This document shows positions 46,177-64,000 of a stretch of DNA of 64,000 bases, piece by piece. Numbering within the stretch: the stretch's first letter is position 1; each line of letters begins with the position of its first letter. Below the pieces are notes generated by a model. The model was not told the DNA's origin. It worked only from the letters and a program-made list of their open reading frames with translations, and ran no database searches. Origin of the DNA: Abditibacterium sp. (lineage in GTDB: Bacteria; Armatimonadota; Abditibacteriia; Abditibacteriales; Abditibacteriaceae); contig OZ251992.1 of NCBI GenBank assembly GCA_965246885.1, forward strand, positions 256,001 to 320,000. Direction: 5' to 3'. A program made the position numbers and the translations under genes.

Positions 46177-46210
46177 GATGTTTAAAATTGGCTCTAAGTG
46201 GGTATAATGA
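46177..46210 (+). promoter_or_regulatory. sigma70-type promoter of module 1
   Basis: GATG-TTTAAA-N16-TATAAT-GA; same architecture at 58313-58346. Confidence 0.6.
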
Positions 46211-46256
46211 GATGGCATACCTAAAGCCCGATGCGCGGGGGCACTTGAAAGCTGGT

Positions 46257-47528
46257 ATGCCCACTGCCATGACCGCCCTTTCTGCTGTTCGCCCAAACCA
46301 GACTCTTCACGAGTGGGTCGCAGCCGATTTGCGCTTGAAAATCGAGAGCAGCGAACTGTCTCCGGGAGAGCGTTTGCCATCTCGCCAACGGCTGGCCGAG
46401 CAGTACGGTGTGAGCACCATCACGGTGCGCGAAGCGCTGCGTCGTTTGGCTGCCGAAGGTTACATTTTGAGCCGCCGGGGTTCGGGGTGCTACGTGGATG
46501 GCAAAGACGTTTTAGCGTCGGGCGACATAGATGGCGCGCGAAATCAGAGCGTGAATGGGGGCAACGCGTATGCCCTTGGGCGGGCGTCGGTCGAGAAAAC
46601 CTTCAGCAATATGGTGGCTGTTTTGACGCCATTGACGGAGGCGCTTTCGGGAGCGGACGCGGCGCGGTTTCAACTGCTGGAACAAGGCGCCCTCAACGAA
46701 GTCCGGCGCGCGGGTTCTCATGCTTTGGCGCTTCATCCCGACCGTTTAAACGACGAGGAGATCGAGCGACTGGCCGAGATGGGCGTGCGCGGGGTGATTA
46801 TCGGCGAATTCGGGGCGGACACCAAACGTGAGGTGGCTTGCGCGCAGTTGCTGGCGAATCACGGTGTTGCGGTCGTGATGTATGGGGAAGGGGAAGCGGA
46901 TGAGTTCGAGGCGTTCGACCGCGTCGTTTCCGACCACGAAAGTGGGGCCTACGATTTGGCACGTTGGCTCATCGAGCAAGGTCGGAAGCGCATCCTGAAC
47001 GTGTGGGGGATGCCCGCGCAGGGGTATTGGTTCGCCCAGCGCTACAAAGGCTACGAGCGGGCGATGCGCGAAGCGGGGCTTGAAGTTCTGGCACCCATTC
47101 AAGTTCCGCCAACGCCGCTCACCACCTCGTCGTCGTGCGCGCCCTTTGAACAGCACGCCCGGTTCATGGCGGGGTTCCTCATCGAGCACCTGCGGGGAAG
47201 CGAGTCGGTTGACGCTATTATGGCGGGAACTGACCGCGATACCTTTGGAGTGCTGGCCGCCTGCCGCTTGCTGGGCAAGGAGCCGGGCCGCGATGTATCG
47301 TTGGTGGGCTACGACGACTATTGGAAGGAGTGCGAGGAGCGCGCGTTCGAGCCTTGCAGCCCTCAAGCCACCGTTTCCAAGCGCACGGCTCAGATAGGGC
47401 GTGAACTGGCCACGCTCCTGTTTGAACGCACGCAAGGAAGTTTGCCTGCTCCCGCGCAGCGCCGGGTGGTTACGCCCCAAATCGTGGTGACGAGAAGCAG
47501 CGCCCGCAGTCAGTTGCCAGAAGAGTGA
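46257..47528 (+). CDS. GntR HTH + LacI-type sensor transcriptional regulator (AraR-like)
   Basis: GERLPSRQRLAEQYGVSTITVREAL..L..EG.I..RRGSG; C-terminal SDHESG..RYKGY..VSLVGYDD; start uncertain. Confidence 0.88.
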   Translation: MPTAMTALSAVRPNQTLHEWVAADLRLKIESSELSPGERLPSRQRLAEQYGVSTITVREALRRLAAEGYILSRRGSGCYVDGKDVLASGDIDGARNQSVNGGNAYALGRASVEKTFSNMVAVLTPLTEALSGADAARFQLLEQGALNEVRRAGSHALALHPDRLNDEEIERLAEMGVRGVIIGEFGADTKREVACAQLLANHGVAVVMYGEGEADEFEAFDRVVSDHESGAYDLARWLIEQGRKRILNVWGMPAQGYWFAQRYKGYERAMREAGLEVLAPIQVPPTPLTTSSSCAPFEQHARFMAGFLIEHLRGSESVDAIMAGTDRDTFGVLAACRLLGKEPGRDVSLVGYDDYWKECEERAFEPCSPQATVSKRTAQIGRELATLLFERTQGSLPAPAQRRVVTPQIVVTRSSARSQLPEE

Positions 47529-47650
47529 ATGTCTACATGCCATAAACCAAACGCCATGCTGGTGGCGACTTGGAAAGTATTATTTACCAGCGCAGGGGAG
47601 TTTCTCCCACCACGTCAGCAAACAATCGGCTTTCAGCCCAAGGAAACAAA

Positions 47651-48424
47651 ATGAACACATCCAAACAAGGCTTTACCCTTATAGAATTGCTCGTAGTTAT
47701 CGCCATCATCGCTATTTTGGCAGCTATCTTGTTCCCCGCTTTCGCGCGTGCGCGCGAGAACGCCCGCCGCGCCTCTTGCCAGTCCAACCTCAAACAAATC
47801 GGCCTCGGTTTGCTTCAGTATGCCCAAGACTACGACGAGAAAATCGTGCGCTGCTCCTACGGCACTGGCGGCGGTGATGGCGCTTCCCAATCCGATAAGT
47901 GGAAGTGGATGGACGCCGCTTACCCCTACGTCAAGAGCACCCAAATTTTCACCTGTCCCAGCGACTCCGTGAACACTGGCTACACCTACAACCAACCGGG
48001 AGTTGGAGGAGGCAACCTCTCTTTCGGTTCTTACACCATCAACTGCGCCGTTGGCGTTGGCGGAACGGCGCCTTCGAGCAACGCGAGCGAAACCACGCTC
48101 GCGCAACTGAGCGAATCGGCAACCACCGTTTGGGTGGCCGATGGAGCGCCCAACCCAAACAAAGACTACACCTACCGTTACATTCCCGTCGACCTAGGGC
48201 CAGGATCAGCAGGAGGTACTGGTGATGGCGTCAGCATTTCCGGCACGTCACCGCGCCTTTTGAACGGCCACTCTTCCGCTTCAAGCAAAATCAGCGAGCG
48301 CCATTTGGATACGACAAACGTCCTGTACTGCGACGGGCACGTCAAAGCCGTGAAGCTGGACGCCATCGCCAAAACGAACGCGGCGGGAACTGCCATCCCC
48401 GCGCTCACCGTAGAAGCCGACTAA
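47651..48424 (+). CDS. prepilin-type N-methylation / DUF1559 protein with H-X9-DG motif (#1)
   Basis: [45 protein letters not shown] and [16 protein letters not shown] motifs. Confidence 0.93.
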
Positions 48425-48434
48425 CCCAAATACC

Positions 48435-48479
48435 GCATCCGCGCGTGACCGGGGAGTGGAACCGGTCACGCGCGGATGC
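48435..48479 (+). other. 18-bp intergenic stem-loop between DUF1559 genes
   Basis: GCATCCGCGCGTGACCGG-N9-CCGGTCACGCGCGGATGC; no U-tract. Confidence 0.75.
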
Positions 48480-48496
48480 TATGGAAGAAAACTGCC

Positions 48497-49207
48497 ATGA
48501 CACACAGAGAAATAAAGCGCGATTCTGGATTTACCCTTATAGAATTGCTCGTAGTTATCGCCATCATCGCAATCCTTGCAGCGATTCTGTTCCCCGCTTT
48601 CGCGCGTGCGCGCGAGAACGCCCGCCGCGCCTCGTGCCAGTCCAACCTCAAACAAATCGGGCTGGGGCTGGCGCAATACATTCAAGATTACGACGAGCGC
48701 ACGCCCATTCAAAGCTACAGCTACAGCGTCAACGGCGACGTGGTCTACTATTCCAGTAGCACGGCCCTCACCAACTGGATAAAGGGCATAGACCCCTATG
48801 TGAAAAGCTGGCAAATCTACCGGTGCCCGTCGGCTACCAGTTACGCCGCCCTTCCCGTTGGGGATTATACACCCAACGGCACCAACGATACCAGTTACTT
48901 CGCCAACGCGGTGGTAATGAACCGCAGCGCCAGCGTCATTCCCGCTTCATCCGAGATCATCTGGGCGCACGAAGATCAGGTCTCTTACGGCGCTTCGGTG
49001 CTTAGGCCGACCACGCAGGACAGCGGCGCGACTTATCTGGGCTGGCTCAACTCAACTTACGATGTTCATCACTTCGAGGGCGGCAACCTGCTGTTCTGCG
49101 ATGGGCACGTCAAGTGGCGCAGACAAAGCAGCATCAAGGCCAGCGAGTTTGGACTGACCAGTACAGCCGTCGGCGTGGCCGGTGGAACATCAACGGCGGC
49201 GTTTTAA
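48497..49207 (+). CDS. prepilin-type / DUF1559 protein with H-X9-DG motif (#2)
   Basis: GFTLIELL..., CPS and [15 protein letters not shown] motifs. Confidence 0.93.
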
Positions 49208-49234
49208 GCGCCCAAACATCGCCCGGAGGAATTC

Positions 49235-50179
49235 ATGATTTCCCAATACGCAGGTGGCGGCGCCCCGGCGGCGCCTTCCGGTTATGGTTTGTGCTTCCAC
49301 TGGACGACGTGGACGATGCCCCGGCACGGGGAATTGCTGCCGTTTGAAGAAGCGATCAATGCTTTTGATGTCGGGCGCTTCGCGAACATGGTGGCGCAGA
49401 CCGGCGCGAGTTATTGCTTCGTGACGGCGACGCACGCGCTCGAACAGATTCCCGCGCCGATTCAATCTCTGGAAGCGGCGTTGCCGGGTCGCACTTGCGC
49501 GCGCGACCTGTTGGGCGAGATGGCCGATGCGCTCATCGAACGCGGCGTCCAGTTCGCGCTTTATTACAACCATTCCTGCAACGCGGAAGACGACCCGCAG
49601 TGGCAACGCGCCTGCGGCTGGTTGGACGAAGATAAGTCCCGCTTTTACGACATCGTTTTCGGCATCGTGCGCGAACTGGGCGAACGCTATGGCGAGCGCT
49701 TGGCGGCGTATTGGTTCGACAGCGCCTTCACCCTCGCGCCCTTAAGCCCCGATTGGCAAAGGTGGACGGATGCGGCCAAAACTGGAAACCCCGACCGCCG
49801 CATTTGCTACAACTCCGGCGTCAATGACCTGACCAGCTACACCCCGCTTCAAGATTACTGGGCGGGCGAGTTCGACGACATCCATCATCCCAACGCGCAA
49901 CCTCCAACCGACTACGCTTCGGGCGGACGCTTGGCCGCCAACGGGCTGCCTTTTCATAGCCTGTTCTGGCTCGACGACTTCTGGGGACACACGGCCAAAG
50001 ATACCGACATCGTGGCGCCCAAGTACTCCGACGAAGAATTGTGCGAATACGTGACCCGCGTCCTGCGGCACGGCGGCGCCGTTACGCTCAACCCCAGCGT
50101 CTATCAGGACGGAACCATCTCCCCGGCGACTTTCGCGCAACTGCTCAAAGTCAAAGCCGCCGCGCACGACGCGCGCTAA
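49235..50179 (+). CDS. alpha-L-fucosidase-like (GH29-like) glycoside hydrolase
   Basis: FHW, FD...FA..V..TGA.Y, RDLLGE.ADAL, LYYN, ELGERYG and YWFD (nucleophile position) motifs. Confidence 0.7.
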   Translation: MISQYAGGGAPAAPSGYGLCFHWTTWTMPRHGELLPFEEAINAFDVGRFANMVAQTGASYCFVTATHALEQIPAPIQSLEAALPGRTCARDLLGEMADALIERGVQFALYYNHSCNAEDDPQWQRACGWLDEDKSRFYDIVFGIVRELGERYGERLAAYWFDSAFTLAPLSPDWQRWTDAAKTGNPDRRICYNSGVNDLTSYTPLQDYWAGEFDDIHHPNAQPPTDYASGGRLAANGLPFHSLFWLDDFWGHTAKDTDIVAPKYSDEELCEYVTRVLRHGGAVTLNPSVYQDGTISPATFAQLLKVKAAAHDAR

Positions 50180-50194
50180 CCCTACCCCCTTTTC

Positions 50195-52858
50195 ATGGAC
50201 AAGACCTTTTCGGCGGCACGCGCCTTGTTGTGGGCGGCGTTTCTGCTTTGCCCTACCTGTGGCTGCGTGCGCGCTGACGAAGCCGCCGCGCCCGCCGCGC
50301 CCGCGAACAAAGCCACCAACAGCGCGCCTGCTCCGCTTTCCTACACCTCGACATGGGTGGGAAACTCTTACGGGCAGGGCGACGGCAAATGGATTCAAAA
50401 CAACATTTTGGGCCTGCATGTCACGGCGTCCGGCGTCGTGTATACCAACAGTTGGTGGGACGAAGGGCGGCGCGAAAGCGGCATCTACGCCGGAAAAGAC
50501 GGGACTCCCGTCGGCATGTTGGAAAGCTTGCACGACTCTTTCGGCGGCGGCTTCGCGGTGACGGGCGACGACGGGTTCATCTACGCCTCGAACTGGGACA
50601 ACGTGCGCCGTTGCCATTTCGATGGTAGCCCCGCGCCTTTTCCCGGCGGGCAAGGCGTGCGCGGTGACACCGTCGGCACTTCCACCAAGCCCACCGGCAC
50701 CGACAAGAGCAAGGGCGTGCGCGGTTTGGGCGTGGATAAGGCGAATCACCTGCTGTTCGTTTCCCAAAACAACGACAACGAACTGCAAGTGTGGGACACC
50801 GCCACCATGACGCGCGCCCGCAAATGGAGTGTCGAGCGACCCGGCCAATTGGCTGTTGCGCCCGATGGCACAATATGGCTGATTTCCCGCAAAGAAGCCG
50901 GACAGAGCGGCCAAGTTTTTCACTACCAAGCGGACGGCACGCAGCTTTCCCAGACAATCGAGGGCGGCGCCGACTTCGACCCGACGGGGATTTGGTTCGA
51001 CGCCAAGACCAACCGCCTCTTTGTGGCCGACAACGGCCCCGACCAGAACATCAAGATATACGGCCAATCGCTGGCCCTTGCGCACCCCAAGCCGAGCGCG
51101 GTCTTTGGGGCGGGCATTTACTCCGGCACGCCGGGTCAAGTCACAACTTCCAAGTTCGGCAGTAGCGGTTTGACCGGCATCGCCACCGATGCGGCGGGCA
51201 ACTTTTACGTGAGCATGAACGGCGTCGGCCCGCAGTCGTTCTGGCATGGCGGCGGGACGGTGCTGGAATCGTGGACGCCTGCGGGCAAGCTGCGTTGGCG
51301 CAAGCTCGGCCTCGCGTTCGTGGACAGCGCCGACGCCGAACCCGCGTCCGACAAGGGTAGCGGCCTTGATGTCTACGACAAGTACTCCCACTACCGCCTC
51401 GACCTGTCCAAGACGACGGCGGGGACGGAGTGGACATACGCGGGTCGCACGCTCAACCAACTGAAGTACCCGCAAGACCCGCGCTTTCTGCGCTCGGCGG
51501 ACGGCTGGGACTACACCGGTGGCACCTTCGTGCGCCAAGTCCAAGGGCATAAGCTGCTGTATGTATTGAGCATGCAAGCGCGCCGCGTGCTCATCTTCCG
51601 CTTTAGCCCCGCCACCGATGGCGAAACCGCTATTCCGGCGGGCATCTGGGAATCGCAGGGCGGCTACTCCGCCGACTACCCCGGCAGCCCGCGCGGGAAG
51701 GATTTCTTCTGGCGCGACATCAACGGGGACGGACGCTTCGACGCCGATGAATTCGCGGCGGGGCCGGGAGTGCCCAACGTCGGCTTCGGGTTGTGGGTGG
51801 ACTCCAACGGCGACTTCTGGTCGTGCAACCACTGGGCCGGGAATGGCGTCGGGATTCGCCGATGGAAGATGCAGGGCTTTGACGCGCACGGCAACCCCAT
51901 CTACGACTATTCGGCGGGTAACTACACCGAGTTCCAGCGTCCCGAAGGGAGCCAAGGCGACCTGCGCCGTTTGGAGTATTTTCCCGCGACCGACACCATG
52001 TACGTCGCCAGCACCAGCGTTTCCGATGGCGACCGCGACGCGGGCAACCGCATCGTGAAATACGACCACTGGAACAGTTCCAAACGGAGCGTCGCTTGGA
52101 CGCTTGACCCGCCTTTGGACAAGACGAAAATCTCGGCAATAAGCGTCGCCGGAGATTACCTGTTCCTCGGCTATAGTTACTTCGGCACCAACAGCCGTGA
52201 GGGAACAATCCGCGTTTACAAGGTCGCCGACGGCTCCTATGCGGGTGAGATTACCCCCACGCCTGCCGTCGGCTCGGTCAGTGGCACCTTCGACATCCCC
52301 TACGCCATTCGCGCCGTCAAACGGCAAAGCGGCGAGTACCTGATTTTCGCTGAGGACGACCACTACGCGAAAATCATCGTCCACCGTTGGAACCCAACCG
52401 GCACGACAGTGGTGGATACCCTCGACCAACTGAACAAGATAGACGCGGCGCGCAGTTCCAAGGGGTGGGACATTGACGGCTCCAATCCGGGGCAGTTCTC
52501 TGGCGACACCGGACGGGCGACGCGCACCAGCGATACGGCGCAGGCGTTGGTGTGGCACGTCCCGAATCTTTCCAATTTTGCCGGGGCGATATATTTCGAT
52601 TCTAAGCTCGACCTCGATGGCTTGGTGACATTTTCCACTTCGATGGATGGCGCCAAATGGACGCCCCTCCAGACGGCCCGCACCGCTTCTCTGGGCACGA
52701 GCGGCGGGTGGAGCGTTTCCTCTTTTGCGCCCCATAGCGGCGCCGTGCCCGCCCACACGAACTACCTCAAGTTGCAGGTCGCTCCCAGTGGCGTGAGTTG
52801 GAACGTGCAGTTGGGCCGGATGGAATTGTTTAGTGCACCGGAGCCGGTAACGCGATGA
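50195..52858 (+). CDS. secreted beta-propeller (NHL/SMP-30-like) protein with C-terminal accessory domain
   Basis: Signal peptide; repeated propeller-like blades (LAVAPDGTIW, LFVADNGPDQ, IATDAAGNFYV); DINGDGRFD Ca-loop. Confidence 0.65.
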   Translation: MDKTFSAARALLWAAFLLCPTCGCVRADEAAAPAAPANKATNSAPAPLSYTSTWVGNSYGQGDGKWIQNNILGLHVTASGVVYTNSWWDEGRRESGIYAGKDGTPVGMLESLHDSFGGGFAVTGDDGFIYASNWDNVRRCHFDGSPAPFPGGQGVRGDTVGTSTKPTGTDKSKGVRGLGVDKANHLLFVSQNNDNELQVWDTATMTRARKWSVERPGQLAVAPDGTIWLISRKEAGQSGQVFHYQADGTQLSQTIEGGADFDPTGIWFDAKTNRLFVADNGPDQNIKIYGQSLALAHPKPSAVFGAGIYSGTPGQVTTSKFGSSGLTGIATDAAGNFYVSMNGVGPQSFWHGGGTVLESWTPAGKLRWRKLGLAFVDSADAEPASDKGSGLDVYDKYSHYRLDLSKTTAGTEWTYAGRTLNQLKYPQDPRFLRSADGWDYTGGTFVRQVQGHKLLYVLSMQARRVLIFRFSPATDGETAIPAGIWESQGGYSADYPGSPRGKDFFWRDINGDGRFDADEFAAGPGVPNVGFGLWVDSNGDFWSCNHWAGNGVGIRRWKMQGFDAHGNPIYDYSAGNYTEFQRPEGSQGDLRRLEYFPATDTMYVASTSVSDGDRDAGNRIVKYDHWNSSKRSVAWTLDPPLDKTKISAISVAGDYLFLGYSYFGTNSREGTIRVYKVADGSYAGEITPTPAVGSVSGTFDIPYAIRAVKRQSGEYLIFAEDDHYAKIIVHRWNPTGTTVVDTLDQLNKIDAARSSKGWDIDGSNPGQFSGDTGRATRTSDTAQALVWHVPNLSNFAGAIYFDSKLDLDGLVTFSTSMDGAKWTPLQTARTASLGTSGGWSVSSFAPHSGAVPAHTNYLKLQVAPSGVSWNVQLGRMELFSAPEPVTR

Positions 52859-53028: not shown

Positions 53029-56000
53029 ATGCACACAGTTCTCAAAATCGCGCGCGCCGCTTCCCTGACGGGCGTTTTTCTGGCGTTCCCTGCACCCCGT
53101 TGTTTGGCCGCCGGGGAGATTCCCTTGGTGGCCAATTACACAATGGAGCCGCCCGCCGACGCGCGCGCACTCGCGGACAATGGCCCGCTTCATATAGATG
53201 GGCGCCTGACTTCGGGCGTGGAGTATTCGACGCCCGGACGCGACGGGACGGGCCACGCGCTGCGCTTTTCCGGCGAGGGCGATGGCGTGGCCCGCATAGA
53301 CAAGGGAAAGTTTCTCCACCGGCTCGGCGCGCCTTTGTCGGTTTCCTTGTGGATCAAGCCGCAAGCGTGGGCCGAGCCGGGGCGCGGCGCCGCTCTGCTG
53401 ACCAAAACCTCCCAATCGTGGATTTCCAAAGCCTTTGCGCTGAGCATCGGCGACAACGGCAGTTTGGGCTTCGAGGGCAGCGAGGGCAACGGGTCGGGCT
53501 GGACGGGGCCGATACTCCAACTGAACAAGTGGCAACACGTCGCTTTCACCTTTGCACCCGGCGGCCAGAGGATTCTCTACCTCAACGGCCAAGCCGTCAG
53601 CCAAGCCCCGGCGGGGCCGGGTTTGTACAACAACGAAGAACCGCTTTTCTTCGGCTACGAGAACGGCTACGACGGGCCGGGCGGCTACCGCTCGAAATAC
53701 AAGGGCGAGATGGACGACGTGCATATCTACGCCGCCGCCTTGTCCGGCGACCAAATCAGGGCCGACATGATCGCTCCCCTCGCGCCCACCCGCGCCGCGA
53801 CCGAAAGCGACCTCGCGCCGCGCCGCTTCCGCACTACTCTGCGGCTCGCGCGCTTTGATTGGCCGCTTGGACTGCGCGACTATCGCGGACAAACCCGCGC
53901 GGGCGCCCGGCGCACGGATGGCCCGGACGCGCTCGACTTTCCGGCGCTCACCTTGACAAACGGCGACGGCACCGCGCAAACCCTCTTTGAAAAAGAGGCC
54001 GAGCAGACCGTTGACTTGCCCGAATTTCAAGACGCCCAAGGCAGCCCCGTCTTTCGCCAACCCTACGACAGCACCATCTCCCCCGGCGACCATTGGGTGC
54101 GCGCCCACAAGCTCACCTTGTGGGGGCGGCGCGACGTGTATTCCACTGATGCCACGCTGCGCGGGGGGCGCGACTTGGAAATCTGGGCCTTTCCCATTCG
54201 CATATCCGGCGAGCCAATCGCCTCCGTCGAAGTCAAGTCCGGCGCCCAGATCGTTTACCAAAGGACGTTTGTCCCCGCGCTTCACTCCCTCACGCTCCAA
54301 CTGCCGCAAGCCGCCTATTCCGTTACGGTCAACAACCGCGCGCCCGTCAGTTTCGCCGCCGGGTTGCAGCCACTCCAAAGCGGCGACCCGCGCTGGAACG
54401 CCCTCGTGGTGAACGCGCCCATCGCCGGAACCAAGTTGAGAATCGAGAACGCGCCGCGCGCTTTTGTCCATCAAAAAGAGTGGGACGACGACCTCGCGGC
54501 GGTCTCGCAAGCGGCGCCGTTGCCATTTGAATGGACGCGCGAGGTGCGCTCGTTCCCCGATTTCGTCGGCGTGGAAGTGCCGCGCTCGCCGCTTTCCATC
54601 TACGCCACCAGCCTAACGCACGGCATGAGCGGCGGCTTTCTGTATCACTCCGAACAAGGCCCGGCGTTTTCCGGCTCCGCCGACAATTACGCGCAGTTTC
54701 TGGCCGACAACGGCTATGATTTGGTCTTCGAGCAAAGCATCAATGGTTACGTGCTCGATCGCGCGAGGGACGTTAGCTCCTACGAAAACTGGCTGGCGGC
54801 GCTTGGACGGCACGGCGTGCGCGGCGGCCTCAACGTCAACAGTCTGAACAACTCGCACCAAGCGCTCTTTGGCGCGAACCTCGTCGAGTTCCACGCGCCC
54901 AAATTCCGCGACGCGCAGCTAATGGCGGGGCGCTTCGCGCGCTTCCCCAACTTCGCGGGCATGGCGATGGGCGCCGACAACGCGCAGTATTCGTGGTATT
55001 GGGATTGGAACGGGCCAAGCAGCGAGCACCCCTTTGGCATGGCGCTCAGCACTTTGTTTGCTCAAAGCGCGCCCGTCATCCCCGCCGCGCCCGCTTGGAC
55101 GGAACTCAAATCCTACCAACAAAAGACAACGCAACAGCAGTTCCTCCGTTACATCGCCCGCTTCGACTCGGCCTATAAAAAGAACGGCGAATACTTTGGC
55201 CGCGCGGTGCGCGAGGTTAACCCCGCTCTGGCGATAACGTCCGGCTCATACGGCAGCGAGTCGGGAGTGGGCGCGCGCGGCGGGCACTGGTCAACCCTGC
55301 CGGGAAAAGCGATGTTCGAGGGGCTTCCCGTTGCGCAGGCTTACGACTGGGACGAAACCGACGTGGTCAAGCCGCTCCAAAACGTGGCCCTCACCGACCG
55401 GCTCCGCTCGTATTTCCCGGACAAACCGGCGTGGTCGCTGTTGGACGATTTCCGCTTGAAGTTCGGACGCGAAACCATGCAGCGCCAATACGCCTTAGCC
55501 CTCACGCGTGGAATTGAGGGGATGGGCGTGTCCTTCCTCGCCAACCCCACCAACCAAAAGGAGTGGAACAAGCCGGACTACTCCAACTGGCGCCGCGACA
55601 TGCACGCTTGGGCACACCGCTACGGCGGCGTTTATGCCCGCACCCAACCGCGCCCGTCCGTCGGGATTCTCTACGTCAACGCGCAAGCGCTATCGCGCAC
55701 CGTCGTTGGCAACAAACCCGACGCCCCCGACGCCGCTTTGCTCGCAGGCTCGCACGGCGGCAAGACGAGCGAGGCGCTGTTCTTTTGTCAGGCCGCCGGT
55801 TGGCCCGCCAAAATCGTCACGCCCGAAGAATTGCGGCGCGGCCTCGCGCCTTCCGTGCACACGCTGTTGCTGGTCGGCCTGAACCGCTTCGACGGAACGT
55901 GGAACTGGTATGACGGACTGACGCCCGACCTAAAACGCTTCGTCGCGCGCGGGGGCCGCCTCGTTTCGGACGCCGAAACCGTCGCGCCGCCCGGTGTTCC

Positions 56001-57165
56001 CGTCGAGAACCTCGGCTTGCAAGTGCGCGCCTACGTCGAGCAAGGCGAACACGTGGCGCCCGCGCCCTCGACCGACCGCACCGCCCTGCTTTACGCGCGC
56101 AACCGCGACAACATCGCCAAACTGCGCGCCCTGAAAAACGCCGCGCCCCCGTTATGCGCGAGCGACGACCCCGCCATCTGGACAATCCCGACCCAAACCG
56201 GCGGCGTTCAATACGTGACCGTCGTCAACTACGCCGCGCCCGCAGGCCAAAACGCGACGCACGTCTTTGAACCGCGCACCGCCGCCTTGCGCTGGAACTC
56301 CGCGCGCCCCATCTACGATGTTCGCCTACGCCGCAAGCTCACGCCTGCCGAAGCCGCAACGGTGGACTTGACCCGAAACGCCTTCGCACTTTACGCCCTG
56401 CCGCCGCGCGCGGTGGGTGTGCCCCGCATTGCCCTCGCGCGCGGCGCCGATGGCTTCTGGAGCGCCAAAGTGGGCGTCGGGGCGCCCGATATGGACGGCG
56501 TGCCAGTGGAAATTGCCATCGAGAAAGGTGGGCAGAAAGCCACCGTTTGGGGCGCGACGGGAAGCGGCATCAAGCTGCCCATTCACGCGAGTTTGCCCGG
56601 CGCTTACTCCGTCACCGCGACGGAACTGTTGTCCGGCCTGAGGGGGAAAGCGACGGTTTCGGTGCCCGCCGCCCCGAAGAACGCGCCCGCGACACACGAT
56701 ACAGCCATCGCACGCTTTTTCGCGCGCCAAACGGTGCCCTTAACCGTTGCTCTCACGCCGTCGCAGTTCGACGACGCGGCGTGGCAAAAGGCGGCGGCAC
56801 TTCTCGTGGGCATGGCGCGCGCCGCCGGACGCCGCAACGTGACCGTCGCGCGGCTCGAACCGGGGACGCTCGTGACGGGTTTACAGGTCGTGGGCGGCGC
56901 CCAAAGTTTTCCGCGATGGCAGACCATCGAAAGCGACATCGTTCTACTGGGCACGCCGAACAGCAACGTGTTGTTGCTCGACCAAGCGCGCGGCTTTTTG
57001 CTGCCTCAAGCGGCGTTCGACCTCTCGCGCGGCGCTTACTCCGCGAGCGCTTCCTATTCGCCCTTCGTCGGCGAATACGACGCGCTCAACCTCGTTTCTC
57101 CCGATGCTTCGGGCGTGGCCGCGTTCATCCATGACTCCACAAAACTTCAAAAGAAAACCCCATGA
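53029..57165 (+). CDS. large secreted LamG (concanavalin-like) domain protein, putative glycanase
   Basis: Signal peptide after MHTVLK; LamG motifs SVSLWIKP, WQHVAFT, LYLNG and G.MDDVHIY..ALS; the frame is also open from ATG 52855. Confidence 0.72.
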   Translation: MHTVLKIARAASLTGVFLAFPAPRCLAAGEIPLVANYTMEPPADARALADNGPLHIDGRLTSGVEYSTPGRDGTGHALRFSGEGDGVARIDKGKFLHRLGAPLSVSLWIKPQAWAEPGRGAALLTKTSQSWISKAFALSIGDNGSLGFEGSEGNGSGWTGPILQLNKWQHVAFTFAPGGQRILYLNGQAVSQAPAGPGLYNNEEPLFFGYENGYDGPGGYRSKYKGEMDDVHIYAAALSGDQIRADMIAPLAPTRAATESDLAPRRFRTTLRLARFDWPLGLRDYRGQTRAGARRTDGPDALDFPALTLTNGDGTAQTLFEKEAEQTVDLPEFQDAQGSPVFRQPYDSTISPGDHWVRAHKLTLWGRRDVYSTDATLRGGRDLEIWAFPIRISGEPIASVEVKSGAQIVYQRTFVPALHSLTLQLPQAAYSVTVNNRAPVSFAAGLQPLQSGDPRWNALVVNAPIAGTKLRIENAPRAFVHQKEWDDDLAAVSQAAPLPFEWTREVRSFPDFVGVEVPRSPLSIYATSLTHGMSGGFLYHSEQGPAFSGSADNYAQFLADNGYDLVFEQSINGYVLDRARDVSSYENWLAALGRHGVRGGLNVNSLNNSHQALFGANLVEFHAPKFRDAQLMAGRFARFPNFAGMAMGADNAQYSWYWDWNGPSSEHPFGMALSTLFAQSAPVIPAAPAWTELKSYQQKTTQQQFLRYIARFDSAYKKNGEYFGRAVREVNPALAITSGSYGSESGVGARGGHWSTLPGKAMFEGLPVAQAYDWDETDVVKPLQNVALTDRLRSYFPDKPAWSLLDDFRLKFGRETMQRQYALALTRGIEGMGVSFLANPTNQKEWNKPDYSNWRRDMHAWAHRYGGVYARTQPRPSVGILYVNAQALSRTVVGNKPDAPDAALLAGSHGGKTSEALFFCQAAGWPAKIVTPEELRRGLAPSVHTLLLVGLNRFDGTWNWYDGLTPDLKRFVARGGRLVSDAETVAPPGVPVENLGLQVRAYVEQGEHVAPAPSTDRTALLYARNRDNIAKLRALKNAAPPLCASDDPAIWTIPTQTGGVQYVTVVNYAAPAGQNATHVFEPRTAALRWNSARPIYDVRLRRKLTPAEAATVDLTRNAFALYALPPRAVGVPRIALARGADGFWSAKVGVGAPDMDGVPVEIAIEKGGQKATVWGATGSGIKLPIHASLPGAYSVTATELLSGLRGKATVSVPAAPKNAPATHDTAIARFFARQTVPLTVALTPSQFDDAAWQKAAALLVGMARAAGRRNVTVARLEPGTLVTGLQVVGGAQSFPRWQTIESDIVLLGTPNSNVLLLDQARGFLLPQAAFDLSRGAYSASASYSPFVGEYDALNLVSPDASGVAAFIHDSTKLQKKTP

Positions 57166-57950
57166 CAAAGCACCTCCTTTCAGTACTCCTCGTGATGGCC
57201 TACCCTTTGGTAGCCCGCGCGCAAAGCTGGCCACAGGTTCTGGTGCCGCGCACCGCCGCGCCGCCGGGAATGAAAGCCGCACCCGATGAAACGGCATGGA
57301 ACCGGGCCGCCTTGATTCCTCGTCTCACCCTATCGCGCGGCGCCGACGCCAAGGGCCTCGCGCCCCTGCCCACCTCGGTGCGCTTGTTGTGGGATGCCCA
57401 CTATCTTTATTTGCGCTTTCGCTGCGCCGACGCGGAAATCTACACGCCCATTAAGGGCCGCGACGCCGAGCTTTACAAGGGCGACGTGGTGGAAGTATTC
57501 CTCGACCCCGTTGGCGACGCGCGCTGGTATATCGAGTTGGAAATCAGCCCGCGCGGTGACATCTTCGACCAAATGTTCTCCGTCACGGCCCAACCGCGCT
57601 TCAACGCGCACGGGCGGCTGGTGGACGACGTGCTGGCGCGCGACTGGTGGCCCAACCTGTCGTGGACGCTCGACGGTTTGCGCGTGGCGACGCGCGTCAT
57701 CCCGGCGCAGAGCCAAACGAAGGAATGGATCGCCGACATCGCCATTCCCGCCGCGCCGCTCTTGCGGCGGTTGGGCAAAAGCCAGTTCGAGCCGATGGAT
57801 TTGCGCGCCCATTTTCTGCGCTACGATTGGACAGCGCCGCTTTCCACAACCCACCAACGCCGTTTGGTCGCCATGAACTGGGCGACGGTAGATTACGGAT
57901 GCCCCCACATCTCGCCCGCAGCGATGGGATTCGTGACCTTGAATCGCTGA
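57162..57950 (+). CDS. secreted CBM9-like/DOMON carbohydrate-binding protein
   Basis: Signal peptide; T.VRLLWD..YLYLRF, GDVVEVFLDP, Y.ELEISP.G..D and W.A.IAIP motifs. Confidence 0.78.
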   Translation: MTKHLLSVLLVMAYPLVARAQSWPQVLVPRTAAPPGMKAAPDETAWNRAALIPRLTLSRGADAKGLAPLPTSVRLLWDAHYLYLRFRCADAEIYTPIKGRDAELYKGDVVEVFLDPVGDARWYIELEISPRGDIFDQMFSVTAQPRFNAHGRLVDDVLARDWWPNLSWTLDGLRVATRVIPAQSQTKEWIADIAIPAAPLLRRLGKSQFEPMDLRAHFLRYDWTAPLSTTHQRRLVAMNWATVDYGCPHISPAAMGFVTLNR

Positions 57951-58095
57951 GTCACAAACATACGCGGACGAGCGACAGACCTCTGGCAACCAGTCACAGA
58001 CGTCTGGCAATGAGTCACACACCTCTGCCAACGACTGACAGACGTGCGCCGACCGCCGACACGCGTCTGCCAATGGTTGCCGGAGGGCGTTGGGC
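57949..58095. repeat. degenerate 21-nt tandem repeat, about 7 units (family A)
   Basis: Units at 57949, 57970, 57991, 58012, 58033, 58054 and 58075; consensus GAGTCACAGACGTCTGGCAAC. Confidence 0.85.
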
Positions 58096-58312: not shown

Positions 58313-58370
58313 GATGTTTAAACGCCCCGCGATTTGGGTATATTGATATTGCGGACGAAAGGTAGAACCA
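58313..58370 (+). promoter_or_regulatory. promoter of module 2 with downstream candidate FadR operator
   Basis: GATG-TTTAAA-N16-TATATT-GA (58313-58346), followed by AGGT-AGA-ACCA (58360-58370). Confidence 0.6.
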
Positions 58371-58383: not shown

Positions 58384-59193
58384 TTGACCGCAGTTATGAC
58401 GACTTCCACGCTTCCCTTGTCTTCCGTTCTGGATATTCCGGCCAAGCCCCGCAAAGGCGTAAACCGCGAATTGTCGGAGATGGCGAGTCTGCATCCGTTA
58501 GGCAGCGCCAATCGGGTGACGGCGGTGGTGGATCAACTGACGCAGGTCGTGCTTAAAGGCGAGTTTAAGCCGGGTTCGCTGTTGCCGCCCGAACGGGATT
58601 TGGCCGAACATCTGGGCGTGTCGCGCAATGCGGTGCGCGAAGCGACCAAGATTATGCAGTCGCGCGGGTTACTGTCGGTCAAGCAGGGATTGGGAACTGT
58701 CGTCACCGGCGTAACCAGCGCGCCGATGCAGCAGATGTTTACGCAAGCCCTGCACGGCAATGAGGAAGCGCTATTGCATCTGACCGAAGTGCGTTTGTCG
58801 TTGGAAGTGCGCATCGCGGCATGGGCCGCCGAGCGCGCGACCGAGTTGAACGTGGCGCGTCTCAAGGAGCTACTCGACGCGATGGAATCGAGCCTGAACG
58901 ACAACGGGCGTTACGCCGATTTGGATGTCGAGTTTCATCTGGAACTGGCGCGCGCCACACAAAACCCGCTGTTCGTGCTCATGCTGGAATCGGTGGCCGC
59001 CATGCTGCATCAGAGCCGCGAGTTGGCACTGTCGGCGATTGCTGCCCCTGTGACCAAAGTCGCCCAGCGAGCGCACGGGCGTCTTTTCAAGGCTGTCGCG
59101 GCCAAAGACTCAGCCGGGGCAGCCCAAGCGATGAGCGACCATCTCGAAATGCAACGCCAAGATTTCGAGAGATTGCTCGCCAAGCCGGAGTAA
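58384..59193 (+). CDS. FadR/GntR family transcriptional regulator (FCD domain)
   Basis: LPPERDLAEHLGVSRNAVREA, R..LE, DVEFH..LA.ATQN and H..L..A...D motifs; TTG or ATG 58396 start. Confidence 0.92.
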   Translation: MTAVMTTSTLPLSSVLDIPAKPRKGVNRELSEMASLHPLGSANRVTAVVDQLTQVVLKGEFKPGSLLPPERDLAEHLGVSRNAVREATKIMQSRGLLSVKQGLGTVVTGVTSAPMQQMFTQALHGNEEALLHLTEVRLSLEVRIAAWAAERATELNVARLKELLDAMESSLNDNGRYADLDVEFHLELARATQNPLFVLMLESVAAMLHQSRELALSAIAAPVTKVAQRAHGRLFKAVAAKDSAGAAQAMSDHLEMQRQDFERLLAKPE

Positions 59194-59255: not shown

Positions 59256-59268
59256 GAGGACAATTCTT

Positions 59269-60000
59269 ATGTCACATTTCAATAGCCGTACAAAGCGGCC
59301 CGCTTTCACGCTCATAGAGCTTCTCGTTGTCATTGCCATCATCGCCATTTTGGCAGCTATCTTGTTCCCGGCTTTTGCCCGCGCCAGAGAAAACGCCCGC
59401 CGCGCGTCGTGCCAATCCAATCTTAAACAAATCGGCTTGGGCTTCGCGCAATACACGCAGGACTACGATGAATTTCTTCCGCCTGGCTACAACACCAACA
59501 ACGGGCGCTATCCTGTCGCTCCAGCCACGCTGTTCAGCGTCCCTTGGGACATCCTACTGCAACCCTACCTTAAAAGCTCACAACTTTTCGTGTGTCCCAG
59601 CGATACTAACTCCATAACCCAAGATTTGACGGGTGTTCCCGGCTACGGTACCACTGCAAAACGCTCATACGCCATTGCCGATTATATTCGCGGTGTCTCC
59701 CTAGCCACCATTAATTCCCCGGCCCTCACGATTGAAGTGGGTGAGCGTGACAAAAACGCAGCGCCGCCCGACCAGTGGTTTTACTACCACGACCTCGACA
59801 ATACCGGTGGAGAAACGTGCGCCAACAACAACGCTGCCAACGACACGCGCCACTTGGGAACGTCGAACTGGCTGTACACCGATGGCCACGTCAAAGCGCA
59901 AAAAGGTGGTAAACGTTCTTTTACGGTGTTTACCGGCCACCCCAACACAGCCTCCGATGGTAGCACCAAAATTGCCGTTGCTGCCGATCTACCTCAATAA
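59269..60000 (+). CDS. prepilin-type / DUF1559 protein with H-X9-DG motif (#3)
   Basis: AFTLIELL..., CPSD and [16 protein letters not shown] motifs. Confidence 0.93.
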
Positions 60001-60127: not shown

Positions 60128-60431
60128 CTCGACGGCCACCCTCATAATGGCTTTCGACTCCGGCTTTTTCTACCTCAACTTGTACAGTACCAACTTTCGG
60201 TTTTTGCCGGGTCAGGGCAGTAACGGAAACGCGGCGGACTGCACAGGTACAACTGACCCGCGTTGCCAAGCAGCCGATTCGGCGCACTTGGGCGGTATCA
60301 ACGTCGCCTTTGCCGATGGACACGTCAAGTTCCAGCGCATCGGGCCGGTCGCGTCCGACCTCAAAGCGTGGACGGCCGCCAGCCGTGCCGCGACTACCCT
60401 CAGCGCTTGGAATCCCGCCAAAAGCTCGTGA
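60128..60431 (+). pseudogene. headless DUF1559 fragment (C-terminal H-X9-DG part only)
   Basis: ..ATLIMAFDS...AHLGGINVAFADGHVKF...WNP with no FTLIELL N-terminus; fused directly to leader repeat copy 2. Confidence 0.8.
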
Positions 60432-62399: not shown

Positions 62400-62437
62400 A
62401 ACGAAAGGCTTTACACGCCCCTCAATAACGCGAAAAG

Positions 62438-62476
62438 CGAGGAGTCAGAAGCCAACTCGTGGTTTCTGACTCCTCG
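62438..62476 (+). other. 17-bp intergenic stem-loop before the GH1 gene
   Basis: CGAGGAGTCAGAAGCCA-N5-TGGTTTCTGACTCCTCG. Confidence 0.7.
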
Positions 62477-62488
62477 TAAAGCCGCACT

Positions 62489-63751
62489 ATGACCGATATT
62501 TTCTCTTTGCCGGACTTTGATTTCCCGCCGGGTTTTTGGTGGGGTAGTGCCACTGCCGGTTATCAAACCGAAGGTGAGGTGATACACGCCCACCTTTATC
62601 CCAAAGAGCAGGCGGGCGAGTTCGCCGAACTTTCGGGGCGGGCCTGCGATTCGTGGAACCGCTTGGACGAGGATTTGGAACTGCTCAAAACCTTGGGGCA
62701 CAACACCTATCGCTTTTCCGTCGAGTGGAGTCGCATCGAGCCGCGCGAAGGCGAGCGCGATGAAGCGGCGCTACGCCGCTATCTCGACTTCGCCCGCGCG
62801 CTCAAGGCGGCGGGCATCCGCGTCGTTCTCACGGTAGTTCACGGCGCGCACCCTTTGTGGTTCGAGGAAAAAGGCGGCTTTGGCGCCATCGAAAACCTGC
62901 CGCTTTTCGAGCGTCACGTCGCGTTCGTCGCCGAAAAGTTCGCAAACTTGGCCGACGCATGGATTGTGCTCAACGAGTTCAATCTCAGTTCGCGGCGCTT
63001 ATCTGCGCTTCATTTTCACGCGCGCGGCTACCACACCATTAAGAAGTTCTCGGATGCGCCGGTTTCGTCGGCGCACGCTTATCAGGAGTTGGCCCCGCTT
63101 CGCTCCCGCGACGAACTCGACCAACTGATGACGCGCCACCGCGACTTTGTGGAAAACGAGTTTTTCTTCCACGCTGTTCGCACTGGCGAAGTCGCCTCGC
63201 CACACACCCAAAGCGTGATGGCGCCCGAAATACAAGGCACCGCCGACTTTTGGGCCATCCAGTACTACACGCGCTTTATGGTGGACGGGCGTCAGGCCAA
63301 CGGGCAAGGCAAACGGTTCGACGCGCTGAAGTTGCAAATGATCGACCTGCCGGGATTCTACATGGAAGAGTTCTTCCCCGAAGGTTTGTTCAACTCTTGC
63401 CTGCGACTGCGAGATAAACCCATCATCGTCACTGAGAACGGCGTGAGCGCCGATAACGACGAGTTTCGGCTGGTGTTCTTGGTCGCCCACCTCAAAATGC
63501 TCCACGAAGCCATCGAGCAGGGGTGCGATGTGCGCGGCTACTTGCACTGGTCGCTGCTGGACAACTGGGAATGGGGCAGTTTCGTGCCGCGCTTTGGCTT
63601 AGTTGCCGTTGACCGCGACACCTTCACGCGAACGGTCAAACCCAGCGGCAACTTGTTCCGCGACATCATCCAACACAACGGCTACCAACCGGAAATGATC
63701 GCGCGCTACCTGCGGCAGATGCCGCGACTTTCTTCCCAACCCTCTTCATAA
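62489..63751 (+). CDS. glycoside hydrolase family 1 (cytoplasmic beta-glycosidase)
   Basis: FWWGSATAGYQTEG, YRFSVEWSRIEP, LNEF (acid/base), VTENG (nucleophile) and WSLLDNWEWG motifs. Confidence 0.92.
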   Translation: MTDIFSLPDFDFPPGFWWGSATAGYQTEGEVIHAHLYPKEQAGEFAELSGRACDSWNRLDEDLELLKTLGHNTYRFSVEWSRIEPREGERDEAALRRYLDFARALKAAGIRVVLTVVHGAHPLWFEEKGGFGAIENLPLFERHVAFVAEKFANLADAWIVLNEFNLSSRRLSALHFHARGYHTIKKFSDAPVSSAHAYQELAPLRSRDELDQLMTRHRDFVENEFFFHAVRTGEVASPHTQSVMAPEIQGTADFWAIQYYTRFMVDGRQANGQGKRFDALKLQMIDLPGFYMEEFFPEGLFNSCLRLRDKPIIVTENGVSADNDEFRLVFLVAHLKMLHEAIEQGCDVRGYLHWSLLDNWEWGSFVPRFGLVAVDRDTFTRTVKPSGNLFRDIIQHNGYQPEMIARYLRQMPRLSSQPSS

Positions 63752-63756
63752 GCATC

Positions 63757-64000
63757 ATGAACAAATCAAATCTTTTAGGCGCCCTCAGCTTGACTGTGGG
63801 CTTATGGACGGCCACTCTCGCGGCAGGCGCGCAACCCGCGCCGACATTGGCTACTAACGCTCCGAACATGACCACCGGCAGCAAGAAGCTGATTCAAATC
63901 GGCTGGGACTCGGTTGAACCGGCTTATCTGCGCGATCATGCCGCCCAAATGGAAGCGTCCTCGCCGTTCAACGGGCTTGTCGTTGTGTTGCGTCCCGCGC
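63757..64000 (+). CDS. secreted hypothetical protein (partial, runs off the window)
   Basis: MNKSNLLGALSLTVGLW...AGA signal peptide, then KKLIQIGWD...LRDH..MEA..PFNG; open to the end. Confidence 0.7.
   Translation, partial: MNKSNLLGALSLTVGLWTATLAAGAQPAPTLATNAPNMTTGSKKLIQIGWDSVEPAYLRDHAAQMEASSPFNGLVVVLRPA

What the first reader, a model, noticed from the sequence alone, without database searches (positions are those of the whole stretch)
46177..64000. Two tandem regulator -> DUF1559 pseudopilin -> glycanase modules: PUL-like loci with no recognisable transporter
Seen: module 1 is GntR-LacI, DUF1559 x2, GH29-like, beta-propeller, LamG protein, CBM9-like. Module 2 is FadR, DUF1559, a DUF1559 fragment, GH-CBM, GH1 and a secreted protein. 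In both, the gene directly after the regulator is a prepilin-type protein with a constant N-terminus and a highly variable body, and no SusC/SusD, TonB-dependent, ABC or MFS transporter lies in either module within this window. Established: GFTLIELL is a prepilin-peptidase substrate motif, and DUF1559/H-X9-DG proteins are expanded in Planctomycetota and similar phyla with unknown function. Inference: these proteins fill the substrate-capture slot of a PUL, for example as swappable glycan-binding subunits of a shared type IV/T2SS-like filament used for uptake.
Basis: partly seen in the sequence, partly recalled or inferred. Interest (0 to 1): 0.8.

Follow-up and report, generated by a model that had tools for sequence, protein, structure and literature searches.

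The report
Pilins replacing outer-membrane nutrient receptors
In this bacterium, where no standard outer-membrane nutrient receptor was found, pilin-like genes of a large family of unknown function sit directly behind sugar regulators and behind vitamin B12, thiamine and nickel control elements, so they are likely interchangeable nutrient-binding subunits of a pilus that would pull food into the cell.

Summary
The gene order is real. It is not chance: 15 of 25 LacI-type regulators in this Armatimonadota genome are followed directly by a DUF1559 prepilin gene (background 45 of 2899).

One correction: module 2 runs 3.5 kb past the window into an OPT/YSL-fold inner-membrane transporter (DUF6785). 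What is missing is the outer-membrane receptor; no TonB-dependent barrel or plug was found (genome 92.7% complete).

The predicted DUF1559 structure is pilin-like. The family supplies 59 of 63 prepilin motifs, beside one retractile type IVa pilus machine.

The role is wider than glycans. Here DUF1559 also follows the only cobalamin riboswitch, the only TPP riboswitch and nikR. Across the phylum it is the next gene for 51 of 89 B12 riboswitches (TonB-dependent receptors 9), 13 of 30 TPP riboswitches and 6 of 30 nikR genes, and head sequences group by regulon. Published Fervidibacter RNA-seq shows glycan-specific induction of some copies.

Best reading: ligand-specific capture pilins in the receptor slot. 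Binding, filament assembly and uptake are untested. The scan noted this plan and the B12 link earlier on other DNA.

The parts
46181..46208 (+). Promoter-like site (TTTAAA-N16-TATAAT) opening module 1
   Evidence: consensus match only
46257..47528 (+). GntR-HTH + LacI-type sugar-binding regulator (start uncertain: 46212 or 46257)
   Evidence: PF00392 E 1e-20, PF13377 E 4e-16
47651..48424 (+). DUF1559/H-X9-DG prepilin 1 (G|FTLIE); predicted pilin fold with a large loop-rich variable insert
   Evidence: PF07963+PF07596; AF2 pLDDT 91.9; VIA Z 5.2 to PilA4
48476..49207 (+). DUF1559/H-X9-DG prepilin 2 (G|FTLIE); variable part 16% identical to prepilin 1
49235..50179 (+). GH29-like protein, no visible signal peptide
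   Evidence: PF01120 E 8e-13; N-terminus
50195..52858 (+). 887-aa protein with signal-peptide-like start, family unknown
   Evidence: no Pfam or PDB hit; homologues in 12 of 30 other class genomes
53029..57165 (+). 1378-aa LamG3-domain protein with signal-peptide-like start
   Evidence: PF13385 E 2e-21; homologues
57162..57950 (+). CBM9-like protein with signal-peptide-like start
   Evidence: PF06452 E 2e-7
58317..58344 (+). Promoter-like site (TTTAAA-N16-TATATT) opening module 2
   Evidence: consensus match only
58396..59193 (+). FadR-type (GntR+FCD) regulator
   Evidence: PF00392, PF07729
59211..59255 (+). 45-nt leader with a predicted hairpin, upstream of prepilin 3
59269..60000 (+). DUF1559/H-X9-DG prepilin 3 (A|FTLIE)
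   Evidence: PF07963+PF07596
60083..60127 (+). Second copy of the 45-nt leader (44 of 45 identical), found nowhere else in the genome
   Evidence: blastn; public contigs break at the repeat and run on through the fragment
60147..60431 (+). C-terminal DUF1559 remnant with H-X9-DG and no prepilin helix; likely a decayed tandem copy
   Evidence: PF07596 profile 224-260, below cut-off; TIGR04294 33 bits
60597..62399 (+). Lipoprotein-like or secreted protein, possibly clan-A GH plus CBM4_9-like domain
   Evidence: no Pfam or PDB hit; Atlas look-alikes 0.93-0.94
62489..63751 (+). GH1 glycosidase, no signal peptide
   Evidence: PF00232 E 5e-53
63757..64000 (+). Start of a 610-aa secreted protein. The same-strand run continues beyond the window: CBM9-like protein, DUF6785/6784 OPT-fold transporter, class III aminotransferase, M81/MlrC, creatininase-like, another DUF1559

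Best explanation
Both modules are regulator-led catabolic gene runs in which a DUF1559 prepilin gene occupies the position that an outer-membrane receptor holds in classical loci, and each DUF1559 protein is likely a ligand-specific capture subunit that would be built into the cell's shared retractile type IV pilus and would deliver its ligand to the periplasm through the secretin. Shown: the gene order and its recurrence; the class III signal; the absence of detectable TonB-dependent receptors in this genome; the pilus machine; the same slot in B12, thiamine and nickel regulons; heads grouping by regulon. Predicted: the pilin fold. Inferred: the regulator derepresses the operon when its sugar appears; PilD processes the prepilin; the subunit enters the filament; the variable insert binds the glycan or oligosaccharide released by the secreted enzymes; PilT retraction carries it inwards; an inner-membrane carrier finishes uptake (the DUF6785 OPT-fold protein for module 2, BtuF-type ABC for B12, NiCoT for nickel); GH1 and the GH29-like enzyme act in the cytoplasm.
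For: (1) LacI-to-DUF1559 adjacency: 15 of 25 here, 8 of 13 in G017, 7 of 18 in G007, 14 of 29 LacI ORFs in 79 related loci. 14 of 16 regulator-led modules here have a carbohydrate-type Pfam hit in the next three genes, 3 of them weak and 2 being BNR repeats. (2) No PF00593 or PF07715 match in this genome; same-family genomes have 1-6 PF00593 matches against 14-150 TIGR04294 matches. (3) This genome's only B12 riboswitch, only TPP riboswitch and only nikR each directly precede a DUF1559 gene; NicO genes converge on the nikR one. (4) Next gene after 89 B12 riboswitches: DUF1559 51, TonB-dependent receptor 9, BtuF-type 5. BtuF-type follows the DUF1559 in 9 of 19 second genes tested. TPP 13 of 30. 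NikR 6 of 30, with TonB-dependent receptors in 2 of the 4 other NikR next genes scanned. (5) All 51 B12-linked heads form one branch, SH-aLRT 96, with their own GYGYNxxYxG motif; all 13 TPP-linked heads have another TPP-linked head as best match. (6) Predicted pilin fold over residues 8-240; P22, E5, C36, C95 invariant in the mature chain. 59 of 63 PF07963 matches are this family and there is no short PilA or GspG. Three PilT/PilU and PilM are over cut-off, with PilB, PilC, PilD and a PilQ-like secretin. (7) Fervidibacter sacchari RNA-seq (PMC11535203 supplement rows): LacI WP_259096448 and DUF1559 WP_259096451 both peak on starch (43-fold range for the DUF1559); GntR-LacI WP_259101407 and DUF1559 WP_259101409 both peak on gellan; adjacency is inferred from accession order.
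Against: No binding, processing, assembly or uptake is shown. The fold match is weak (best Z 5.2, Foldseek best E 0.13) and gave no lectin or CBM match. 40 of 59 copies have Ala, not Gly, at -1. The pilin is dispensable for these enzymes in relatives: only 1 of 13 loci with a homologue of the 887-aa protein and 3 of 7 with a homologue of the 1378-aa protein have a DUF1559 beside them, and those heads are not closest to the window's heads. The glycan head-to-enzyme covariation test showed mainly close-relative synteny. In G028, 36 prepilins are mostly lone genes and the single LacI match is not adjacent to one. In F. sacchari 15 of 30 DUF1559 rows vary under 4-fold and only 5 of 30 over 10-fold across eight glycans; I have no genome-wide background for these ranges. 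B12-DUF1559 also occurs in genomes that have some TonB-dependent receptor (27 of 57 matches, against 22 of 32 without), and G007 has both arrangements. One clade per regulon can reflect old synteny as well as ligand specificity. The genome is 92.7% complete and all 11 other same-family genomes searched have a PF00593 match.
Confidence: 0.55

Rival explanations
1. DUF1559 proteins are ligand-binding proteins that stay anchored in the inner membrane by the pilin helix, or form only a short periplasmic pseudopilus, and concentrate ligand in the periplasm. Outer-membrane passage is by porins or an unknown channel.
For: All the regulon-slot and clade evidence fits this too. Ala at -1 in 40 of 59. 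In Tuwongella the proteins partition to detergent-soluble fractions S2 and S3 (PMC8567305 passage). Porins were not searched.
Against: B12 operons already carry a BtuF-type periplasmic binder right after the DUF1559, which would make it redundant. No other major-pilin candidate exists for the T4aP machine. E5 and P22, needed for filament assembly in known pilins (recalled), are invariant.
Confidence: 0.2
2. Each DUF1559 is a cargo-specific pseudopilin or adaptor that exports or displays the secreted enzymes encoded beside it through a T2SS-like or T4P machine.
For: Regulator-led modules here contain large proteins with signal-peptide-like starts. PMC13274419 (passages) suggests T2SS export of alginases for a locus with a pulG-like pseudopilin that has 67 homologues. 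PMC8567305 notes flanking genes with signal peptides. A second GspE/PilB-like ATPase and three tandem secretin-like genes exist here.
Against: Many B12, TPP and NikR operons have no secreted hydrolase after the pilin. The DUF1559 at C1:118672 leads eight genes without a visible signal peptide. The window's enzymes mostly occur without a DUF1559 in relatives. In F. sacchari the chondroitin-induced DUF1559 WP_259100850 has a next accession with no chondroitin peak.
Confidence: 0.12
3. They are adhesive or sensory pilins: they attach the cell to the polysaccharide particle or signal its presence, without carrying anything in.
For: Type IV pili aid adhesion to biopolymers in planctomycetes (PMC11131199 passage), and the MUL2 pilus is proposed for attachment in Akkermansiaceae (PMC13174399 passages). 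The variable region is rich in Tyr, Asn, Ser, Thr and Gly.
Against: Adhesion does not explain control by B12 and TPP riboswitches and NikR, or the position before BtuF.
Confidence: 0.1
4. The adjacency is incidental: a large, mobile gene family drops in behind regulators.
For: Many copies are lone genes among housekeeping genes, and remnants occur.
Against: P 1.6e-22 within the genome, recurrence in other genera, regulon-specific head groups across many families, and substrate-specific induction in a relative.
Confidence: 0.03

Closest known systems
DUF1559 / prepilin-type H-X9-DG family (PF07596 SBP_bac_10, PF07963, TIGR04294)
   Same: The window genes are members. Large expansions are reported in Planctomycetales (PMC8567305 and PMC2754498, passages).
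   Different: The papers found give no function beyond a solute-binding label.
Archaeal bindosome of Saccharolobus (BasEF with GlcS, AraS, TreS; PMC13705601 passages)
   Same: Many sugar-induced proteins with a conserved class III N-terminus and diverse C-terminal parts, encoded away from one shared type IV filament machine.
   Different: Bindosome subunits are ABC-type solute-binding proteins in a cell without an outer membrane. Here the predicted head is the pilin domain itself with a variable insert, the cell is a diderm (LpxC and LptF/G present), PilT motors are present, and the slot is that of the outer-membrane receptor.
Bacteroidota SusC/SusD polysaccharide utilisation loci (recalled)
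   Same: Regulator, capture component and CAZymes in one co-oriented run, repeated many times per genome.
   Different: No TonB-dependent barrel or plug detected. Inner-membrane carriers are rare in the modules (DUF6785 in 2 of 16 by a crude scan).
BtuB-BtuFCD under a cobalamin riboswitch; TonB-dependent nickel receptors under NikR (recalled)
   Same: Same control elements, same downstream BtuF-type binder, and the classical arrangement occurs in sister genomes.
   Different: DUF1559 is the first gene in 51 of 89 cases against 9 for a TonB-dependent receptor.
Akkermansia MUL2 type IV-like pilus (PMC13174399 passages; Davey 2023 not held)
   Same: Pilus machinery tied to glycan foraging in a bacterium without classical Sus loci.
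   Different: One conserved locus with an archaeal-type pilin, proposed for attachment; not a large family of regulon-specific subunits.
Verruconatronum alginate cluster pseudopilin (PMC13274419 passages)
   Same: A pulG-like pseudopilin with 67 homologues inside an alginate-induced lyase cluster; a pseudopilin is among the proteins over-expressed on alginate.
   Different: The authors propose T2SS export of enzymes, that organism has a TonB system, and I did not check that the protein is a DUF1559.
OPT/YSL transporters (barley YS1, PDB 7wsr/7wst), for the DUF6785 gene beyond the edge
   Same: Predicted fold: TM 0.62, Z 24.1.
   Different: 10-12% identity; substrate unknown.

Membership tests
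DUF1559 / H-X9-DG | PF07963 + PF07596 over cut-off and an H-X9-DG motif near the C-terminus | tested here: met
   motif visible in all three full genes; H211, D221, G222 in 57-59 of 59 paralogues
Type IV pilin | Class III signal: G/A at -1, F1, E5, hydrophobic helix | tested here: met
   E5 59 of 59; G 19, A 40 at -1
Type IV pilin | Long alpha1 helix plus C-terminal beta-sheet (pilin fold) | tested here: met
   Predicted only: helix 10-60, strands 213-234; the top 20 VIA rows are all pilins or pseudopilins, best Z 5.2, rmsd 3.4, 117 aligned; weak scores
Type IV pilin | Processed by PilD and polymerised into a filament | not testable with these tools
   PilD gene present
Type IVa pilus system (host machine) | PilB, PilT, PilC, PilD, PilM and a secretin | tested here: met
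   3 PilT/PilU and PilM over cut-off; PilB 627 bits (cut-off 676); PilC; A24 peptidase; PilQ-like secretin in the pilM run
Type II secretion system | Dedicated GspG plus GspHIJK pseudopilin set | tested here: not met
   All 63 PF07963 matches are accounted for: 59 DUF1559-type, 3 large minor pilins in the pil locus, 1 remnant; genome 92.7% complete
Type II secretion system | GspC, GspL, GspM | not tested
   families not searched
SusC/SusD PUL | TonB-dependent transporter with SusD | tested here: not met
   PF00593 0 and PF07715 0 matches; SusD itself not searched; genome incomplete
SusC/SusD PUL | Clustered regulator and CAZymes | tested here: met
SusC/SusD PUL | Co-induction by the target glycan | not testable with these tools
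   no RNA holder listed for this organism; published data only for F. sacchari
Bindosome | Binding proteins with class III signals encoded away from one shared machine | tested here: met
   (layout only)
Bindosome | Solute-binding-protein fold in the C-terminal part | tested here: inconclusive
   no such fold listed; pilins fill the list
Bindosome | Measured ligand binding and uptake defect | not testable with these tools
   needs experiment
OPT/YSL (for DUF6785) | YS1-type fold | tested here: met
OPT/YSL (for DUF6785) | Proton-coupled import of peptides or metal chelates | not testable with these tools
   substrate unknown

The most novel reading that the evidence does not exclude
Armatimonadota, and probably the other phyla with DUF1559 expansions, use a TonB-independent route across the outer membrane: one retractile type IV pilus assembled from a library of dozens of pilins, each with an antibody-like variable head for one nutrient (glycans, B12, thiamine, nickel), switched on by that nutrient's regulator and hauled in through the secretin.
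Probability: 0.4. Interest if true: 0.92.

Novelty: new variant of a known kind. Interest (0 to 1): 0.75.

Why it matters
How polysaccharide-degrading bacteria without SusC/SusD import glycans is an open question (stated for Planctomycetota in PMC11131199, passage), and DUF1559 is a very large family with no known function. The regulon-slot evidence names concrete ligands (cobalamin, thiamine, nickel, starch- or gellan-derived sugars) for specific clades. That turns both questions into simple binding and knockout tests, with a cultured relative (F. sacchari) available.

Tried and rejected
Silent-cassette or gene-conversion model for the fragment and the constant N-terminus: synonymous identity over the first 50 codons has median 0.50 against 0.44 expected from codon usage (tandem window pair 0.73), and the fragment has no close donor. 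Rejected; the fragment looks like a decayed tandem copy.

Assembly artefact for the fragment: contigs of runs X1 and X2 (one study, possibly the source sample) cover it without differences, but none spans both repeat copies.

Three-copy complex of prepilin 1: no answer, score 0.00; neither evidence for nor against.

Expression in this organism: no RNA holder listed.

PDB sequence searches for the 599-, 887- and 1378-aa proteins: 0 hits at E 0.1. Lectin or CBM fold in the DUF1559 head: none listed, which does not exclude one.

Head-versus-enzyme covariation for glycan loci: 36 of 7716 cross-genome pairs share a neighbour, mostly close orthologous loci; uninformative. Terminator scan at chance level. 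ABC permease (14 matches) and MFS (13 matches) searches placed none in the window modules.

The careful tree did not finish; the quick tree is reported (the 102 'related-locus' rows were left out).

Literature searches: 'DUF1559' (4 papers); 'H-X9-DG'/'prepilin-type' (55, 40 listed); pseudopilin + polysaccharide utilization + Planctomycet (2); Armatimonadota + polysaccharide + pilin (3); methylation/GH/PVC/pili (22, 12 listed); cobalamin riboswitch + pilin (11, 8 listed); PF07596/SBP_bac_10/TIGR04294 (3). In the listings and passages I saw, none proposes DUF1559 as a receptor substitute. The library lacks most subscription papers, and the main supplementary PDF of PMC11535203, which may cover pili, was too large to read.

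Full report
SETTING. The window is G000:C1:256001-320000 of a 3.56-Mb, 92.7%-complete genome. Its DUF1559 relatives come from Armatimonadota, mostly Abditibacteriales. LpxC and LptF/G genes indicate an LPS outer membrane. Gene calls outside the window come from my own codon-model caller (2962 genes), so starts are approximate.

THE OBSERVATION. Each module begins with a similar promoter-like site, so regulator and pilin are probably co-transcribed. The fragment at 60147-60431 is preceded by a 44-of-45 copy of the leader of prepilin 3 and lacks the prepilin helix. The genome holds 59 full DUF1559-type genes in 49 loci plus 10 partial matches. Mature residues 1-55 are 83% identical at the median, residues 101-205 only 16%. 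15 of 25 LacI-type regulators are directly followed by a full copy, against 45 of 2899 other genes (P 1.6e-22). The same holds for 8 of 13 in G017 and 7 of 18 in G007, but 0 of 1 in the distant G028.

THE TRANSPORTER CLAIM. Inside the window neither module has a polytopic membrane protein. Module 2 continues on the same strand to a DUF6785/DUF6784 gene 3.5 kb past the edge. Its model (pLDDT 93) matches barley YS1 (E 3e-8, TM 0.62; Z 24.1), so an inner-membrane carrier is likely present. Its downstream neighbours (class III aminotransferase, M81/MlrC, creatininase-like) leave open whether it carries sugars, amino sugars or peptides. By the crude scan only 2 of 16 regulator-led modules contain such a protein. 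The gap that remains is the outer membrane: no TonB-dependent barrel or plug was found. Same-family genomes have 1-6 PF00593 matches (11 of 11 have at least one; 73 of 121 across the phylum) against 14-150 H-X9-DG matches. Porins were not searched.

WHAT THE PROTEIN IS. The model of prepilin 1 (pLDDT 91.9, 120-row alignment) has a helix over 10-60, a loop-rich middle and C-terminal strands that carry H-X9-DG. Foldseek gave only weak pilin hits. In the wide search the top 20 rows are all type IV pilins or pseudopilins aligned over the whole chain, best Z 5.2. The variable region is therefore an insert in a pilin head, rich in Tyr (5.1% against 2.2%), Asn, Ser, Thr and Gly but not Trp. Of 63 prepilin-motif matches in the genome, 59 are this family, 3 are large minor pilins in the pil locus and 1 is a remnant; there is no short PilA or GspG. 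The machine is type IVa: PilB, PilT, PilC, PilD and a DUF1559-type gene in one locus, pilM to a PilQ-like secretin in another, two more PilT/PilU, plus Tad genes. I infer that DUF1559 proteins are the bulk subunits. In F. sacchari several prepilin-type or DUF1559 genes rank among the top 60 rows of a table whose rows fall in mean expression (PMC11535203 supplement rows), and 20 DUF1559 rows appear in its proteome sheet.

THE DECIDING TEST. Reading G028 showed DUF1559 behind nikR and in front of a BtuF-type gene, positions usually held by TonB-dependent receptors (recalled). I then searched 121 genomes of the phylum for cobalamin riboswitches and read the next gene for 89 of the 150 listed matches: the top 30 and every second of the next 119, own genome excluded. 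DUF1559 is next in 51 (49 by motif, 2 more by Pfam), a TonB-dependent receptor in 9, a BtuF-type binder in 5, an ABC ATPase in 1, B12-related enzymes in 11, propeller or dockerin-like proteins in 4, unassigned in 7, no ORF in 1. Of 32 second genes behind a B12-DUF1559 I scanned 19 that looked like real ORFs and dropped 13; 9 of the 19 are BtuF-type. For TPP riboswitches the count is 13 of 30 loci read (of 40 listed), and for nikR 6 of 30 (of 72). In this genome the only B12 riboswitch (C1:3011030), the only TPP riboswitch (C1:852282) and nikR (C1:1949343, beside two NicO-type genes) each lead a DUF1559 gene, while sister genomes put a TonB-dependent receptor behind the main B12 riboswitch (G007, G011, G017, G123) or nikR (G005, G010). 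Heads sort by regulon: 51 B12-linked heads (the motif-called set plus this genome, G028 and G007) form one branch, SH-aLRT 96 in a quick tree of 138 rows, with a private GYGYNxxYxG motif; 5 of 7 NikR-linked heads group at 97; all 13 TPP-linked heads have a TPP-linked best match. Kin are not independent and old synteny can give the same picture, but riboswitch control ties each group to its ligand's economy.

EXPRESSION IN A RELATIVE. In F. sacchari (supplement file 5 rows), a LacI gene, a DUF1559 gene and a hypothetical gene with consecutive accessions all peak on starch; a GntR-LacI and DUF1559 pair peaks on gellan; an AraC-adjacent DUF1559 peaks on chondroitin while the next accession does not. 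But 15 of 30 DUF1559 rows vary less than 4-fold and 5 of 30 more than 10-fold, I saw no background distribution, and adjacency is read from accession order.

RESULTS AGAINST. The window's own enzymes do not need a pilin neighbour: 1 of 13 loci for the 887-aa protein and 3 of 7 for the 1378-aa protein have one, with heads not closest to the window's. This weighs against a cognate export adaptor, and equally against a tight head-to-glycan pairing for these modules. No carbohydrate-binding fold was found. 40 of 59 copies have Ala at -1. B12-DUF1559 is common also where some TonB-dependent receptor exists (27 of 57 against 22 of 32), which tempers the 'replaces' wording of an earlier scan note. 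Many copies are lone genes of unknown control.

MECHANISM. Most likely (0.55): the sugar regulator switches on its operon; secreted enzymes cut the glycan; the operon's pilin is processed by PilD, built into the shared pilus, binds the glycan or its fragments with its variable insert, and PilT retraction brings them through the secretin to the periplasm; an inner-membrane carrier and the cytoplasmic GH1 and GH29-like enzymes finish. All steps after gene order, motif and machinery are inferred. A ligand-capture role of some kind (best plus rival 1) is about 0.75; export adaptor 0.12; adhesion or sensing 0.10; chance 0.03.

COMPARISON AND NOVELTY. It works like a PUL but fails the SusC test. It is organised like the archaeal bindosome (PMC13705601, passages) but uses the pilin head itself in a diderm. 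In print I found family expansions (PMC8567305, PMC2754498), one pseudopilin in an alginate-induced cluster read as T2SS export (PMC13274419), and pilus-linked glycan foraging in Akkermansiaceae (PMC13174399), all seen as passages only; PMC5352709 mentions the domain in passing. The searches listed under Tried and rejected showed no paper that assigns DUF1559 to the receptor slot. The scan's own notes had the regulator-pilin-glycanase plan, the DUF6785 fold and the B12 link on other genomes. I looked up the last two after my own B12 counts and Foldseek result; the TPP test was run after seeing a note that named thiamine. Verdict: real, a new variant of type IV filament substrate capture, interest 0.75.

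Noticed in passing
window 37655-46016: Co-oriented run upstream of module 1 that looks like hexuronate and sugar-acid catabolism: SDR, Lar_N protein, a uronate-isomerase-like protein (recalled, no Pfam hit), UxaE, RidA-like, epimerase. May process products of the modules.
   Followed up: no
window 21108-23096: PqqD-like small protein, short FtsX permease and ABC ATPase. May be the ABC module that earlier scan notes tie to DUF6785 transporters.
   Followed up: no
G000:C1:2111654-2116287 (L130): Three tandem secretin-like genes with no pilus genes beside them, besides the PilQ-like and two Tad secretins. A possible specialised outer-membrane gate.
   Followed up: partly
G000:C1:2473337-2483071 (L132, L035): Second LacI-DUF1559 module with a DUF6785 transporter in the same run, followed by de-N-acetylase, TIM-barrel isomerase and Gfo/Idh/MocA genes. 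The other 4 of 6 DUF6785 genes are not in such modules.
   Followed up: partly
G000:C1:1989068-1993553 (L028): A DUF1559 gene lies between DUF485 and a sodium:solute symporter, an actP-like pair (label recalled).
   Followed up: no
L004-L043: PhyH-family dioxygenases recur in DUF1559-led carbohydrate runs (7 genes in 4 loci); role unexplained.
   Followed up: no
G000:C1:1010901 and 3048303: DUF1559 remnants directly behind two more LacI-type regulators, showing turnover of the slot.
   Followed up: no
L183, L184 (G018, G016): Homologues of the 1378-aa LamG protein sit beside a DUF6785 gene and no DUF1559.
   Followed up: partly
window 52870-53010 and 57960-58070: Short imperfect 21-24-nt tandem repeats between genes, seen as repeated peptides in the ORF list; similar ones near C1:2508000-2519000.
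   Followed up: no
L211, L224, L230, L231: B12 riboswitches followed by secreted proteins with dockerin-like and YNCE/DUF5074 propeller domains (hits for L224 and L230), candidates for BtuG-like surface binders.
   Followed up: no
G000:C1:143756-145328: Two near-identical tandem DUF1559 copies (97% in the variable part), a recent duplication.
   Followed up: no
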